Below are positions 36,942 through 52,755 of a DNA stretch of 59,698 bases, one piece after another (the first letter of the stretch is position 1; each line of letters begins with the position of its first letter). The stretch comes from Anaerolineales bacterium (GTDB lineage: Bacteria > Chloroflexota > Anaerolineae > Anaerolineales > Villigracilaceae). The stretch spans positions 1 to 59,698 of the forward strand of contig JBBSCM010000001.1 in the NCBI GenBank assembly GCA_038250295.1, read 5' to 3'. The translations under genes and the position numbers were made by a program. Below the pieces are notes generated by a model that saw nothing but the letters and a program-made list of their open reading frames with translations, had not been told where the DNA came from and ran no database searches.

Positions 36942-37961
36942 ATGCTTGAAAAACCCGACCTTCAAGACGAAAAGATAATCGCCTGCTTGCAGGATGAATT
37001 CAGTCTGCCTGTTTCCAAATTTGATTTTCTTCCGCTCGGGGCTGATCAGAATACAGCTGTCTATCGCGCTGTCACAGAAAATGGAACTTCTTATTTTGTG
37101 AAATTGCGAATGGGCAATTTTGAAGAAACCGCTCTGACATTGCCGAAATTCCTCTGTGAACAAAATATTCCGAACATCATTCCCCCGTTCGTTACCAAAA
37201 CAGATCGCCTATGGGCGAACCTCGAGACCTTTAAGATAATCCTTTATCCATTTATTGAAGGCCGCAATGGATTTGACATCGACATGTCCAACCGTCATTG
37301 GTTTGAGTTCGGCGCGGCTCTCAAAAGAATTCACACCGCTGAAATCCCATCATCGATAACAAACCAAATCCGAAAAGAAACCTACTCGCCGCAATGGCGC
37401 GAAATGGTAAAAGCATCCCTGAATTTTAGTGATAATGAATCTTTTATTGACTCCGTCGCTGTGGAATTGGCCGCATTTATGAAAACGAAGCGCAGCGAGA
37501 TATTTGATCTCCTCGAACGGACAGAACGGCTCGCGCTTAAGCTGCAAACTGATTCGCCGCCTTTTACAGTCTGCCACTCTGACCTCCACGCCGGCAACAT
37601 CTTGATCAATGGAGATGACAGGCTTTATATTGTCGATTGGGACAATCCCATCCTTGCCCCCAAAGAACGTGACTTGATGTACCCTGGTGGAGCGCAGGGA
37701 TTCACTGGTCATACTCCACAGGAGGAAGAGATATTATTCTATGAAGGCTACGGTCAAACACAGATTAATCAGTCTGCGCTCGCATATTATCGTTATGAGC
37801 GGATCATTGAAGATATTGCGGTCTACTGCGAACAGTTATTGTCAACAGATGAGGGCGGCGAAGACCGCAAAGAATCCCTTGGATATTTGAAATCGAATTT
37901 TATGCCTAACGGCACGATCCAGGTTGCTTATCAGGCAGATAAGACGGGATTATTCACCTAA
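36942..37961 (+). CDS. Aminoglycoside phosphotransferase, APH(9)/spectinomycin kinase-like
   Basis: LGAD, YFVKL, CHSDLHAGN and IVDWDNPILAPKERDLM motifs. Confidence 0.85.
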   Translation: MLEKPDLQDEKIIACLQDEFSLPVSKFDFLPLGADQNTAVYRAVTENGTSYFVKLRMGNFEETALTLPKFLCEQNIPNIIPPFVTKTDRLWANLETFKIILYPFIEGRNGFDIDMSNRHWFEFGAALKRIHTAEIPSSITNQIRKETYSPQWREMVKASLNFSDNESFIDSVAVELAAFMKTKRSEIFDLLERTERLALKLQTDSPPFTVCHSDLHAGNILINGDDRLYIVDWDNPILAPKERDLMYPGGAQGFTGHTPQEEEILFYEGYGQTQINQSALAYYRYERIIEDIAVYCEQLLSTDEGGEDRKESLGYLKSNFMPNGTIQVAYQADKTGLFT

Positions 37962-49511: not shown

Positions 49512-49537
49512 AAGCCCGGCTCACAAGAGCCGGGTTT
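49512..49537 (+). terminator. Terminator hairpin
   Basis: aagcccggctc-acaa-gagccgggttt. Confidence 0.75.
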
Positions 49538-49573
49538 CGTAGTTTTAAGGAGAAAAACCTTTTAATACGGTTT

Positions 49574-49603
49574 TTGCCAAATTCACTGGATTTATTGTAT
49601 ACT
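49574..49603 (+). promoter_or_regulatory. Sigma70-type promoter of the NACHT operon
   Basis: TTGCCA-18 nt-TATACT, 24 nt before ATG 49628. Confidence 0.6.
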
Positions 49604-49627
49604 GACCTTAAGTCAACGAGGCAGTAC

Positions 49628-52261
49628 ATGACCGAAAAGAAGACATCTCCGAAGAAAACAACAAAACAAACGAAGCCGGAACCGGAAATTCAGGCCGGCG
49701 ACCAGAGTATTGCCGTTGGCGGCGCTGTAACGGATAGCGCCATCATCCATGGGCAGACGATTGTCCTTGCAGACCGCTTCTGGCGTGACCTCAAGCCTGC
49801 TCTGCCGGCCGAAAAGATTCGGGAGGCCACTGCGGCTTATCTCGCCTACCTGACAGACCGTCACTATTACCTTAGCCTGAAAGGCATGGGCGTATCAGAT
49901 CGTGTGCCGCTTAGGCTGAAACTTCTTGATCTCTATGTGCCGCTCAAAGCGCGCATGGAATTACCTGAAGGCGACACATGGAATCGCAACCTCAGCCTCG
50001 CCGGCCGTGAAATCACCAACGATGAACAGGAGCTTTTACACTTCGGTGAGCCTGTGCCGCTTTTGCAGGTATTGCAAAAACATTCAGGCATGATCGTGCT
50101 GGGGGATCCCGGCGCTGGCAAGACAACTTTTGTAAAATACGTTGCGTTACGTCTCGCGCGCGGTGAGGGAGTGAAGATCGGGCTGAGTGATTATTTGCCC
50201 ATCCTGCTTCCGTTGGCTGCGTTTGCCAATGCGATCCAAACACATGACATCCGTCTCGACGATTTCATTGCGGAATACTTTGCCGGCATTGGCGCAGATT
50301 TGCCGGTCGGCCCCATGTTGAGCGAAGCGCTCAAGGCAGGCCGTGCCCTCATCTTATTGGATGGCCTCGACGAAGTACGTGATATTAACATGCGTAATAC
50401 GGTTGTGGAACGCGTGGTGGATTTCTTTGCGTTTCATCGCCGGGTGGGAAATAAATTTGTATTAACCAGCCGCGTGGTCGGTTATCGCGCTGTGCGTCCG
50501 TCTGCTGAAGATCTGGTTGAATGTACCATCGTGGATTTTGAAGAAGACGAGATCGAAAAATTCATTACATACTGGACAACCGCCCTCGAAAAACAGGCCC
50601 AGGGCAATACAGCTGTCGCGCGCACTGATGCGGAGACTGACCGCCGCGAACTGCTTGATTCCATTCAACAAAACCCGGGTGTTCGGCAACTGGCTTCCAC
50701 GCCTTTATTGCTTACCATCCTCGCGTTAATGAAGCGACAGGGTATTTCCCTGCCTGAACGCCGTGTGCAGCTTTATGATCAATATGTAAATACTTTGCTC
50801 TCAACATGGAATCGCGCGCGCAGCCTTAGCGGCCGCGCGCCCGGCCGCGACCTGGATGAGATCCAGACGATACGCATTCTCGCGCCGCTGGCATTGTGGA
50901 TGCACGAGGTCAGCCCCGGTGTTGGGCTGGTTGGGCGTGAAGATATGCGCCGCAAACTGGAAGAACTTTTTTTGGAACGAGGCGATTCGTCCCCGCATCA
51001 GGCCGCGCGCCAATTCCTGACCGATGTACGCGAACATGCTGCGCTTTTGCTTGAACGCGGCCCCGGTGAATATGGTTTCATTCACTTAACTTTTGAAGAA
51101 TACCTTGCCGCGGTTGCTCTTGCTTTAGATGGGCAGGGAGATTCTGCCCCGATCATAGAAACATTATCTGCACATGTAGGCGAGCAGGCCTGGCGTGAAG
51201 TGACGTTGCTTACGATTGGTTATCTTGGTATCCGCCAGCAATTGCCAAAGGTTTCCGGTGAGGTTGTTGAAGCGCTTGTTAATAACCAGCCCGGCCCTCC
51301 CGGCGAAGCCGTGATCCTTGCAGGTGATGCCGTGTTGGATACATGGCCGGGCGGAGTGCCAATACAAAGCAAAGAAAATGTAGTACAAGCCCTGATCACA
51401 ACCATGCAGGATGGCGCCATTCGGCCTGAGTTAAGAAGGCACGCCAGTTTGTTGTTGGGACGGCTCGGCTGGCGGCCCGCGGAACTGGACCGGTTTGCAG
51501 AAGTGCCTGCTAGTGTGTATCAGGCTGGGGTTAAGAAAGAAACGAAGGGAATCCCCTATACATATTGGATCTGTAAATATCCCGTTACCAATATCCAATA
51601 TGCGCGTTTTGTTCAGGAGAATGGATATCAAAGCCGTGAATTTTGGAGCGATGATGGCTGGGAATGGCGCACAGGCAAATATGATGACCGCACGCTTGAA
51701 GATGTAAACCGCGACTGGCTTGAACATCGTCCGCTTGCAAAACGAAACATTCCATACTATTGGCACAGTATCGAGTTGAGCAATCCGATCGTGCCGATTG
51801 TGGGCGTGAGCTGGTTTGAAGCTGAAGCCTATTGCAGCTGGCTTGCGAAAAAGATCGTGGCGGTTCCTGATGGATATACCGTTCGCCTGCCGCGCGATGA
51901 CGAGTGGGAACGCGCTTCACGCGGCACCGATGGGCGTGAATACCCGTGGGGTGAAGGCTTCGATAAAACAGCCGCGAACACCTGGGATAGCAACTCGACA
52001 GGGTCGGGCCTCGGCGGGACCACCGCAGTTTGCACTTTTCCGCAGGGAGTAAGCCCAACCGGCGCAATGGATATGAGCGGCAACGTTTGGGAGTGGACGC
52101 GCTCATGGTATGATGAAGAGAAGAAATATCGCATCGTGCGCGGCGGTTCGTGGATCGGTTATCAATGGTTTGCGCGCTCGTCGTTTTGCAACTGGTCGAT
52201 CCCGTTGATGTTCAATGATGACCTCGGTTTTCGCGTGGTCATTGCGCCAAAAGATTCATAG
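49628..52261 (+). CDS. NLR-like protein: short N-terminal motif, NACHT NTPase, FGE-sulfatase (C-type lectin fold) domain
   Basis: Walker A GDPGAGKT, Walker B LLDGLDE, TSR, TPLLL, FIHLTFEEYLAA; then YPVTNIQY, EWERASRG, YPWG, DMSGNVWEW, RGGSW, GFR. Confidence 0.93.
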   Translation: MTEKKTSPKKTTKQTKPEPEIQAGDQSIAVGGAVTDSAIIHGQTIVLADRFWRDLKPALPAEKIREATAAYLAYLTDRHYYLSLKGMGVSDRVPLRLKLLDLYVPLKARMELPEGDTWNRNLSLAGREITNDEQELLHFGEPVPLLQVLQKHSGMIVLGDPGAGKTTFVKYVALRLARGEGVKIGLSDYLPILLPLAAFANAIQTHDIRLDDFIAEYFAGIGADLPVGPMLSEALKAGRALILLDGLDEVRDINMRNTVVERVVDFFAFHRRVGNKFVLTSRVVGYRAVRPSAEDLVECTIVDFEEDEIEKFITYWTTALEKQAQGNTAVARTDAETDRRELLDSIQQNPGVRQLASTPLLLTILALMKRQGISLPERRVQLYDQYVNTLLSTWNRARSLSGRAPGRDLDEIQTIRILAPLALWMHEVSPGVGLVGREDMRRKLEELFLERGDSSPHQAARQFLTDVREHAALLLERGPGEYGFIHLTFEEYLAAVALALDGQGDSAPIIETLSAHVGEQAWREVTLLTIGYLGIRQQLPKVSGEVVEALVNNQPGPPGEAVILAGDAVLDTWPGGVPIQSKENVVQALITTMQDGAIRPELRRHASLLLGRLGWRPAELDRFAEVPASVYQAGVKKETKGIPYTYWICKYPVTNIQYARFVQENGYQSREFWSDDGWEWRTGKYDDRTLEDVNRDWLEHRPLAKRNIPYYWHSIELSNPIVPIVGVSWFEAEAYCSWLAKKIVAVPDGYTVRLPRDDEWERASRGTDGREYPWGEGFDKTAANTWDSNSTGSGLGGTTAVCTFPQGVSPTGAMDMSGNVWEWTRSWYDEEKKYRIVRGGSWIGYQWFARSSFCNWSIPLMFNDDLGFRVVIAPKDS

Positions 52262-52269
52262 GAGGAATC

Positions 52270-52701
52270 ATGGCAGGAAAAAATCGTCGCCCTGAGCGTG
52301 GTGCAAAAAAGAAAAACGGATTGAGCGCAGGCAATGGCAGTATTGTTATCGGTGGAAGCGTGGACCGAAGCAATATTGTTTTGGGAAATAATAATACGGT
52401 TTCAAATCAAAGCATCAATATCGCGCCTCTCTTTGAGACGATCTATCGTTTTGTTGAAAGACATCCGAAACTTCAAGCCGGGAAAAAGCAGGATGCAAAG
52501 GAAGAACTCAAGGAGATTCAGGCTGCGCTCGAAGAGCCAAAGCCTGACGAAAGTTTTATCGTGCGGCGTTTCCGCAACCTCAAGCGCATGGCTCCAGAAA
52601 TCGTGGAGGTCGCATTTGAAACGCTAAAGAATCCAGTGGGCGGCGTGACAGAAGTTATCAAACGGATTTCAAAAAAGATGGCTGAAGACGCCAACAGATA
52701 A
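52270..52701 (+). CDS. 143-aa protein: Gly/Asn/Ser/Ile-rich N-terminal motif plus helical domain
   Basis: AGGAGG RBS overlapping the NACHT stop; motif similar to the NACHT N-terminus. Confidence 0.85.
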   Translation: MAGKNRRPERGAKKKNGLSAGNGSIVIGGSVDRSNIVLGNNNTVSNQSINIAPLFETIYRFVERHPKLQAGKKQDAKEELKEIQAALEEPKPDESFIVRRFRNLKRMAPEIVEVAFETLKNPVGGVTEVIKRISKKMAEDANR

Positions 52702-52711
52702 GAGCAAAATG

Positions 52712-52739
52712 AACTGGCGGAACCCTCTGCCAGTTTTTT
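52712..52739 (+). terminator. Rho-independent terminator closing the NACHT/partner operon
   Basis: aactggcgga/tctgccagtt stem plus T-run. Confidence 0.8.
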
Positions 52740-52755
52740 GTTGAAAGGATAAAAA

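What the first reader, a model, noticed from the sequence alone, without database searches (positions are those of the whole stretch)
49574..52739. NLR-like NACHT-FGE receptor and small partner share an N-terminal amyloid-like motif: candidate prion-type immune signalling pair
Seen: a two-gene unit with its own promoter and terminators on both sides. The NACHT protein has no enzymatic N-terminal effector, only a Lys-rich tail and AGDQSIAVGGAVTDSAIIHG (49694-49753). The next gene begins with a Lys/Arg-rich tail and AGNGSIVIGGSVDRSNIVLG (52327-52386), 10/20 identical without gaps, followed by an ~90-aa helical domain. Known: fungal NWD2/HET-S and bacterial BASS/Bell loci pair an NLR with an adjacent effector through a shared short Gly/Asn/beta-branched amyloid motif. 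Inference: this locus uses the same logic in an unusual layout, with an FGE/C-lectin sensor rather than TPR/WD40, the partner downstream, and the motif N-terminal to the putative effector domain. Ligand-driven NLR oligomerisation would template the partner and activate its helical domain, possibly against membranes.
Basis: partly seen in the sequence, partly recalled or inferred. Interest (0 to 1): 0.88.

Follow-up and report, generated by a model that had tools for sequence, protein, structure and literature searches.

The report
Amyloid-motif immune receptor with inverted partner
A receptor gene and its small neighbour in Chloroflexota bacteria share a 20-residue tag that closely resembles a known bacterial amyloid-signalling motif, and related gene pairs change this tag together, so the receptor likely switches on its partner by prion-like templating, with the partner built the opposite way round from the known examples.

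Summary
An 877-aa NACHT-FGE protein and a co-oriented 143-aa partner share a 20-residue N-terminal motif (10/20 identical). By eye, each motif also matches a published BASS6 member at 10/20 in register.

The partner's helical domain is TCAD2-like (PF19971), not Bell. NACHT-FGE lies directly upstream in 44 of 47 partner loci. All 48 NACHT-bearing genomes of 74 in the genus carry the partner.

The strongest evidence comes from distant TCAD2 proteins. They sit beside other STAND-type NTPases, and the motif differs between loci but matches within each: 31 of 39 STAND-labelled neighbours against 3 of 90 other neighbours. TCAD2 is C-terminal in 146 of 148 homologues. It often follows caspase, TIR or HetE-N domains and several tandem motifs.

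Templated amyloid signalling is therefore likely. Whether TCAD2 kills or only relays or brakes the signal is open.

Atypical for defence: the locus is syntenic among housekeeping genes, and the lectin segment that DGRs usually diversify is the most conserved part tested. Fibril formation, binding and phage defence are untested.

Verdict: new variant of a known kind.

The parts
49512..49537 (.). Hairpin after the upstream FIST gene, terminator-like on both strands
   Evidence: pattern match only
49557..49571 (+). Window's variant of a conserved ACC-N9-GGT upstream element (possible regulator site)
   Evidence: exact pattern in 25 of 153 loci; the window copy deviates from it
49598..49603 (+). 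-10-like hexamer TATACT; the proposed -35 (49574-49579) is not conserved
49628..52261 (+). NACHT-FGE receptor gene, 877 aa, with no enzymatic N-terminal domain
49694..49753 (+). Receptor-side BASS6-like motif (residues 23-42). Residues 21-44: 84% mean pairwise identity and pN/pS 0.13, against 42% and 0.49 for the Lys-rich tail
50090..50575 (+). NACHT NTPase domain; Walker A at residue 159 and Walker B at 241 look intact
51560..52240 (+). FGE-sulfatase (C-type-lectin fold) sensor domain
   Evidence: fold assignment from PMC8195603
52139..52240 (+). Segment equivalent to the DGR variable region, here nearly invariant (94% identity, pN/pS 0.05); no template repeat found in the assembly
52270..52701 (+). 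Partner gene, 143 aa: basic tail, motif, TCAD2-like helical domain
52327..52386 (+). Partner-side BASS6-like motif (residues 20-39); low confidence and no secondary structure in the monomer model
52423..52695 (+). TCAD2-like five-helix domain (residues 52-142); the helix 4-5 region is its most conserved part tested
52711..52741 (+). Terminator-like hairpin and T-run closing the two-gene unit

Best explanation
The two genes encode a NACHT-FGE protein and a small TCAD2-like protein that share a BASS6-like motif; ligand binding likely oligomerises the receptor, whose clustered motifs would template the partner's motif into a cross-beta stack and likely switch on the partner's helical domain as the output, predicted to arrest or kill the cell. 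Shown: the anatomy, linkage, co-occurrence, purifying selection on both motifs, and within-locus motif matching across distant STAND families. Inferred by analogy with NWD2/HET-S, BASS1/3 and Bab/Agp: oligomerisation, amyloid fold and templating. Weakest step: that TCAD2 is itself the effector. It would act as a mirror image of Bell/HeLo, releasing its conserved C-terminal helix 4-5 hairpin, possibly to the membrane. The ligand is unknown; the frozen binding segment points to one conserved target, either a phage structure or a guarded host molecule.
For: Linkage: 44 of 47 loci. Co-occurrence: of 74 genomes, 48 have both genes, 3 the partner only, 0 the NACHT only and 23 neither (counted by hand). 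Motif matching: 37 hand-picked pairs give cognate mean score 55.5 vs non-cognate 32.0, permutation p about 1e-5; for 11 sequence-independent clusters p about 5e-4. Automated neighbour test: 31 of 39 STAND-labelled neighbours vs 3 of 90 others score 40 or more. Natural swap: L088 has a 60%-identical NACHT-FGE with a different motif class, matched 15/20 by its own TCAD2 neighbour. BASS6 kinship. The 35 residues before TCAD2 are rich in G/N/V/I and poor in P/L, like the published BASS bias. For TCAD2 as the output: stand-alone forms are the majority (85 of 144); the receptor has no other effector and no other gene shares the unit; the domain is C-terminal in 146 of 148; helix 4-5 pN/pS is 0.15; 25 of 85 family members have a 19-residue hydropathy of 1.6 or more.
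Against: No fibril, binding or toxicity data. The window's hairpin reaches only 0.64 hydropathy. TCAD2 often rides behind a caspase, TIR, CHAT, AbiTii or HetE-N domain, where a second effector is not needed, and it is internal in L119. Four neighbours lack a matching motif (L051, L091, L117, L125) and several match weakly (L111, L087a, L110, L074, L106). Covariation inside the orthologue set is slight (47.3 vs 46.6, p 0.02, uncorrected for kinship). A fungal motif placed N-terminal to GFP did not form foci (PMC9815663). The locus is syntenic among housekeeping genes, with receptor identity of 79-90%, like its neighbours; a diversifying immune sensor would vary more. The BASS6 comparison is by eye, not by profile score.
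Confidence: 0.5

Rival explanations
1. Amyloid templating is real but the partner is not toxic. It amplifies the seed, or brakes it as a capped decoy, and the killing is done by unlinked motif-bearing enzymes such as the motif-TIR protein on contig C435. TCAD2 would be a threshold-setting cap or an adaptor, comparable to the Imd or RIPK1 layout of motif followed by a helical domain (architectures recalled).
For: TCAD2 follows the motif in caspase, TIR, CHAT and HetE-N proteins. The genome encodes a TIR protein with an N-terminal motif of the same class (profile E 0.0011). NACHT never occurs without the partner (0 of 48), while the partner survives alone in 3 genomes. A globular domain C-terminal to a motif blocked foci in a fungal test.
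Against: The full-length motif-TIR occurs in only 10 of 74 genomes, 8 of them among the 48 with the receptor; other motif-bearing effectors were not surveyed outside the window's genome. The window's genome has one TCAD2 match and the receptor has none, so homotypic TCAD2 recruitment lacks a counterpart here. The 0-versus-3 asymmetry is small and may reflect gene length or assembly breaks.
Confidence: 0.27
2. The motifs pair the two proteins by ordinary beta-strand or beta-helix docking without self-propagating amyloid, and/or the unit is a domesticated, non-immune sensor of a fixed cellular or environmental ligand.
For: Stable synteny with histidine kinase, FIST, Fur and CbiMQO genes (FIST-like ORF in 38 of 47 loci). 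Frozen ligand segment. Conserved upstream element. No convincing PADLOC match for the receptor (best E 0.006).
Against: The motif resembles BASS6, a sister family of experimentally amyloid BASS1/3/11 motifs. Family members are fused to caspase, TIR, CHAT and AbiTii domains. The pair is missing with these queries from 23 of 74 congeneric genomes.
Confidence: 0.2
3. The shared motif is a chance likeness of two Gly-rich low-complexity tails.
For: Gly/Val/Ile-rich motifs are common in this family and a score of 46 is modest; four non-cognate TCAD2 proteins scored higher against the window's receptor.
Against: Only 5 of 1999 adjacent pairs show a motif-only match this good. Both motifs are under purifying selection while the flanking tails are much less so. 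z is 4 or more against composition-preserving shuffles in 31 of 39 related pairs.
Confidence: 0.03

Closest known systems
BASS/Bell-NLR gene pairs, family BASS6 (Dyrka et al., 10.1101/2020.01.06.895854; data set in PMC8086366)
   Same: Adjacent collinear genes; NACHT protein with a short N-terminal motif and no effector; motif shared with a small neighbour; both window motifs match BASS6 member C09_s010 at 10/20 in register; tandem motifs on the partner side in relatives.
   Different: The partner domain is TCAD2-like, not Bell; the motif lies N-terminal to it (central in fusions) instead of at the C-terminus; the sensor is FGE/C-lectin, not TPR/WD40; the lineage is Anaerolineae. That survey started from Bell C-termini, so it was not set up to find this layout.
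Bab/Agp antiphage system of E. coli, BASS11 (10.1101/2024.11.07.622273)
   Same: Two adjacent genes share an amyloid motif; large sensor and small helical partner.
   Different: The sensor there is TPR-GreA/B-PIN, the effector domain is N-terminal with a hydrophobic first helix, and the pair sits in a prophage defence hotspot; function is shown there and not here.
STAND NTPase-FGS conflict systems with EAD adaptors (Kaur et al., PMC8195603, PMC7159879; DGR clade 5 targets, PMC10907252)
   Same: NACHT plus C-terminal FGS/C-lectin sensor coupled to a separately encoded partner through a shared N-terminal module.
   Different: The coupling module is a 20-residue beta-type motif, not a globular EAD; the variable-region segment is frozen and no template repeat was found; TCAD2 is not present on both partners.
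Fungal NWD2/HET-S (described)
   Same: NACHT receptor with a single N-terminal motif; adjacent partner gene.
   Different: No HRAM similarity was tested; HeLo is N-terminal to two pseudo-repeats, whereas here one motif precedes the helical domain.
Pfam TCAD2 (PF19971)
   Same: The partner matches it weakly (17.3 bits) and many homologues match above the cut-off.
   Different: No link to amyloid motifs or STAND pairing was found in the papers searched.

Membership tests
BASS/Bell-NLR amyloid pairs | Motif at the N-terminus of a NACHT/NB-ARC protein | tested here: met
   Residues 23-42, NACHT from 155
BASS/Bell-NLR amyloid pairs | Matching motif in an adjacent, collinear gene | tested here: met
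   10/20 identity, 8-nt gap; 44 of 47 loci
BASS/Bell-NLR amyloid pairs | Motif at the C-terminus of the partner, behind its effector domain | tested here: not met
   The motif precedes the domain; TCAD2 is C-terminal in 146 of 148 homologues
BASS/Bell-NLR amyloid pairs | [quoted passage not shown] | tested here: not met
   The N-terminus is a basic tail; the domain is assigned to TCAD2. Distant fold kinship is not excluded
BASS/Bell-NLR amyloid pairs | TPR/WD40/ANK repeat sensor | tested here: not met
   FGE-sulfatase domain; relatives with TCAD2 partners do use WD40 or TPR
BASS6 motif family | Sequence similarity to BASS6 members | tested here: met
   By eye 10/20 in register for both motifs; all 30 shown hits of three core hexamers lie in C09 entries, and C09 = BASS6 per the README; two partner-type hexamers had no hit
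BASS6 motif family | Score against the BASS6 profile HMM or grammar | not testable with these tools
   The profile is not available in the script box
BASS/Bell-NLR amyloid pairs | Amyloid fibrils and receptor-to-partner seeding | not testable with these tools
   Needs bench work; monomer models leave the motifs unstructured
STAND-FGS/EAD systems | STAND NTPase fused to a C-terminal FGS domain | tested here: met
STAND-FGS/EAD systems | Same globular adaptor domain on receptor and partner, several copies per genome | tested here: not met
   No TCAD2 or EAD on the receptor; one TCAD2 match in the genome
DGR target | Hypervariable C-terminal region with a template repeat | tested here: not met
   94% conserved and no template repeat found, while the same search found the repeat of the DGR on C254; the assembly is 95% complete
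TCAD2 (PF19971) | Pfam gathering score of 27 bits | tested here: inconclusive
   17.3 bits for the window protein; Atlas top clusters are TCAD2 at 0.93; homologues exceed the cut-off
HeLo/MLKL-like pore-forming bundle | Fold similarity | tested here: inconclusive
   Best Z 8.0 (rmsd 4.0, 103 aligned) and 7.8 (rmsd 2.7, 85 aligned), both to unrelated helical proteins

The most novel reading that the evidence does not exclude
TCAD2 defines a mirror-image branch of amyloid immune signalling. It would be a C-terminal death or control domain switched by an N-terminal or central amyloid motif, used across Chloroflexota with several motif classes beyond BASS1-10. The branch includes hub caspases whose tandem motifs each answer to a different neighbouring STAND receptor and, at this locus, a DGR-type lectin receptor frozen on one conserved ligand.
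Probability: 0.35. Interest if true: 0.86.

Novelty: new variant of a known kind. Interest (0 to 1): 0.7.

Why it matters
Published accounts place amyloid signalling motifs at receptor N-termini and effector C-termini. One review suggests that only RHIM may work in a central position and notes that the screens are biased towards the known layout. This family breaks that pattern and gives an uncharacterised Pfam domain a testable role. It also adds motif classes not found in the held part of the BASS data set and shows single caspase proteins wired to two receptors through different motifs. The window's unit is compact (3.1 kb, with its own promoter-like and terminator-like signals) and has a natural motif-swap relative (L088), so specificity and mechanism can be tested directly in E. 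coli as was done for Bab/Agp. The frozen lectin segment makes a ligand hunt tractable.

Tried and rejected
Fold searches gave no clear match: Foldseek PDB, VIA wide on two models, viral library and a profile search of PDB sequences (best E 0.07). HeLo, MLKL and Bab were not among the listed rows, which does not exclude kinship.

AlphaFold monomer models left single and tandem motifs unstructured, so they say nothing for or against a beta-solenoid.

Pattern scans of the metagenome and viral collections with the diverse TCAD2 alignment could not be run (no conserved stretch), so gene context outside Chloroflexota genomes was not examined. One distant homologue (P0261) had no match among plasmid or phage records.

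No RNA run was listed. No Rfam match in the window. No earlier findings were listed. 'TCAD' was not found in the text or held supplements of PMC7159879 or in the text of PMC8195603.

PADLOC PDC-M14B and AbiTi hits of the partner are weak and partial and were not pursued.

Rejected: catalytic formylglycine-generating enzyme (the cysteine pair I recall for that enzyme is not evident; cysteines at 649, 736, 802, 854); ergothioneine or selenoneine synthases (far below cut-off); active DGR target; obligate dependence on the C435-type TIR.
Full report
WHAT IS THERE. A + strand two-gene unit lies between a FIST-domain gene and a putative lipoprotein gene. Gene 1 (49628-52261, 877 aa) has a Lys-rich tail, a 20-residue motif, a NACHT domain with intact-looking Walker motifs, and a C-terminal FGE-sulfatase domain. 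Gene 2 (52270-52701, 143 aa) has a basic tail, a similar motif (10/20 identical) and a five-helix domain (AlphaFold helices 52-142; residues 1-46 mostly under pLDDT 50). That domain matches Pfam TCAD2 below the cut-off; the Atlas's top clusters are TCAD2. Record titles of relatives are nearly all Anaerolineales or Chloroflexota, several Ca. Villigracilis; the window's own genus is not named by the tools.

MORE THAN CHANCE. Of 1999 adjacent co-oriented ORF pairs in the genome, 37 reach the window's score; 32 are whole-gene paralogues and 5 are motif-only, including this pair. Across the window and 38 orthologous pairs the receptor motif is 84% conserved against 42% for its tail. pN/pS is 0.13 for the receptor motif, 0.13 for NACHT and 0.49 for the tail; for the partner it is 0.25 (motif), 0.29 (TCAD2), 0.15 (helix 4-5) and 0.44 (tail) (synonymous sites are near saturation, so ratios are rough).

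LINKAGE. In 47 loci found with the partner, NACHT-FGE lies directly upstream in 44 (whole, frameshifted in L015 and L045, or cut by a contig end). L029 holds a decayed remnant; L002 and L031 have none. In 74 genomes of the genus at least 85% complete, 48 hold both genes, 3 only the partner, none only the receptor, and 23 neither with these queries (counted by hand; kin are not independent). The locus is syntenic with histidine kinase, FIST, Fur and CbiMQO genes, and the receptor diverges no faster than they do.

DO MOTIFS TRAVEL IN PAIRS? Within orthologues there is little variation to test (cognate 47.3 vs 46.6, p 0.02 uncorrected). Distant TCAD2 proteins are informative. I fetched loci for 18 weaker matches, 20 of the 23 matches, and the new matches. 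They sit beside nSTAND1, NB-ARC, NACHT and other NTPases. For 37 hand-picked pairs (38 listed; L102 dropped for too short a leader) the best 20-mer score averages 55.5 for cognate and 32.0 for non-cognate pairs, permutation p about 1e-5; with one pair from each of 11 sequence-independent clusters, p about 5e-4. Misses: L051, L091, L117 and L125 show no motif; L111, L087a, L110, L074 and L106 are weak. An automated version over the immediate neighbours of 76 TCAD2 genes gave 31 of 39 STAND-labelled neighbours against 3 of 90 others at score 40 or more. Eight of the 39 are orthologues of this pair (23 of 31 without them). The STAND label came from phmmer with 14 segments of these proteins, several without a STAND Pfam hit (e.g. 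the L097 neighbour), so a few rows may not be STANDs. L088 is a natural swap: a 60%-identical NACHT-FGE with another motif class, matched 15/20 by its own TCAD2 neighbour. Caspase-motif-TCAD2 proteins carry up to three tandem motifs, and in L067, L120 and L123 the two flanking NTPases begin with different ones.

WHICH MOTIF. In the BASS data set attached to PMC8086366, class C09 is BASS6 (README). Both window motifs match member C09_s010 at 10/20 in register (by eye). All 30 shown hits of three core hexamers are C09 entries, repeated across folds (7 distinct sequences); two partner-type hexamers had no hit. Five of six short strings from the other TCAD2-associated classes had no hit in the held, truncated file; the sixth hit BASS6 entries. 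In the parts of the papers read, amyloid behaviour was shown for BASS1, BASS3 and BASS11, not BASS6.

WHAT TCAD2 IS. A profile search of 1.84 billion representatives gave 664 hits; of the best 150 listed, 149 were new, the domain was located in 148, and it is C-terminal in 146. In 85 of 144 strong hits it stands alone behind the motif. Among the 54 longer proteins scanned, it follows TIR, caspase, CHAT, AbiTii, HetE-N, receiver, phosphatase, Roc-COR or NACHT-LRR domains, and many have no named N-terminal family. The N-terminus of P0319 matches HetE-N clusters that include small RHIM-annotated actinobacterial proteins, which I infer are Bell proteins; TCAD2 is therefore an addition to Bell, not a stand-in for it. 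Its helix 4-5 hairpin is fairly hydrophobic in the family (median 1.44; 25 of 85 at 1.6 or more) but 0.64 in the window. No fold match stood out.

THE SENSOR. The segment that DGRs vary in FGS receptors is the most conserved part tested (94%, pN/pS 0.05) and is nearly unchanged in three relatives at 68-76% overall identity. No template repeat for it was found, although the same search recovered the repeat of a true DGR NACHT-FGE on contig C254. A fixed ligand is inferred.

MECHANISM. Most likely (0.5): the ligand binds the lectin domain, NACHT oligomerises, clustered motifs seed a cross-beta stack that converts the partner, and the converted partner's TCAD2 domain is the output. The pairing is shown; amyloid templating is inferred from BASS precedent (about 0.75-0.8 on its own); the effector role is the weakest step. 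Rival (0.27): the partner relays or brakes, and unlinked motif-bearing enzymes act. The genome has such a TIR protein, but its orthologue is in only 8 of the 48 receptor-bearing genomes. Rival (0.2): non-amyloid docking or a domesticated non-immune sensor. Chance (0.03).

KNOWN AND NEW. It works like a BASS/NLR pair but fails three defining features of Bell pairs (motif position, partner domain, sensor type), so it is filed as a variant. STAND-FGS receptors with separately encoded effectors are known. Six library searches listed no paper linking TCAD2/PF19971 to amyloid motifs; only the top 8-20 rows of each were seen and subscription journals are largely missing. The supplementary gene-pair tables of the Dyrka preprint could not be seen and may list some Chloroflexota pairs.

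PAPERS SEEN. 10.1101/2020.01.06.895854: parts 1-3 and 5 of 10, plus passages. PMC8086366: passages, supplement 1 part 1 of 241 and searches. PMC7159879: outline, section 30, passages, supplement search. PMC8195603: passages. 10.1101/2024.11.07.622273: part 1 of 8 and passages. Passages only: PMC10907252, PMC13581612, PMC12261475, PMC9815663 (supplement list 72), PMC7889193, 10.1101/2022.07.19.500537 (119). The Imd and RIPK1 architectures and the FGE catalytic motif are recalled.

VERDICT. A real, conserved gene pair and a new variant of amyloid-motif STAND signalling; function untested. Interest 0.70.

Noticed in passing
L138:484-4873 (G000 C254): A complete DGR: NACHT-FGE target, reverse transcriptase, bAvd and a template repeat. 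The target's N-terminus carries a half motif resembling the second half of the window partner's motif, so cross-talk is conceivable. Further template-like repeats lie on C195, C88 and C329.
   Followed up: partly
L136:1627-2262 (G000 C435): Stand-alone TIR protein with an N-terminal motif of the window's class, next to an enolase-like gene (name from recall); full-length in 10 of 74 congeneric genomes.
   Followed up: yes
G000 C442:1-1192 (-): A second pair with the same layout: a 127-aa motif-plus-helical-domain gene upstream of a P-loop (nSTAND-like) gene with a 14/20-identical motif of another class; the helical domain is not a TCAD2 match.
   Followed up: partly
L141:2-2755 (G000 C218): A TIR protein with Gly-rich segments and a C-terminal helical domain directly upstream of a NACHT protein whose N-terminus has motif-like segments.
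   Followed up: no
L140:4051-5746 (G000 C7): A TIR gene followed by a protein with an N-terminal motif-like segment, a hydrophobic stretch and a domain without a Pfam family.
   Followed up: no
L067, L120, L123 (Chloroflexales-order genomes): Caspase-motif-TCAD2 genes flanked on both sides by NTPase receptor genes, each starting with a different one of the caspase protein's tandem motifs.
   Followed up: yes
L119:4840-8994: All-in-one protein: caspase, motifs, internal TCAD2-like domain, then NACHT.
   Followed up: no
window 49557-49571 and 25 loci: A conserved ACC-N9-GGT element about 30-40 nt upstream of the -10 hexamer of the receptor gene; possible regulator site.
   Followed up: partly
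L002:5979-6402: Clean loss of the receptor: the partner gene follows the FIST gene directly.
   Followed up: yes
L057-L059: Zinc-ribbon-like proteins with a distant TCAD2-like C-terminus and no motif, upstream of a conserved 690-700 aa gene without a Pfam family.
   Followed up: no
L099:5998-7392 and L107:4090-6428: Matching motifs between a TCAD2 gene and a neighbour not labelled as STAND (zinc-ribbon-like; DUF642), suggesting other receptor types.
   Followed up: no
window 36942-37961 (+): Aminoglycoside phosphotransferase APH(9)-like ORF, well below the NCBIfam cut-off; the named ORFs of 1-43000 are otherwise housekeeping (ppk, phoU, infB, nusA, truB, ribF), followed by gyrB.
   Followed up: no
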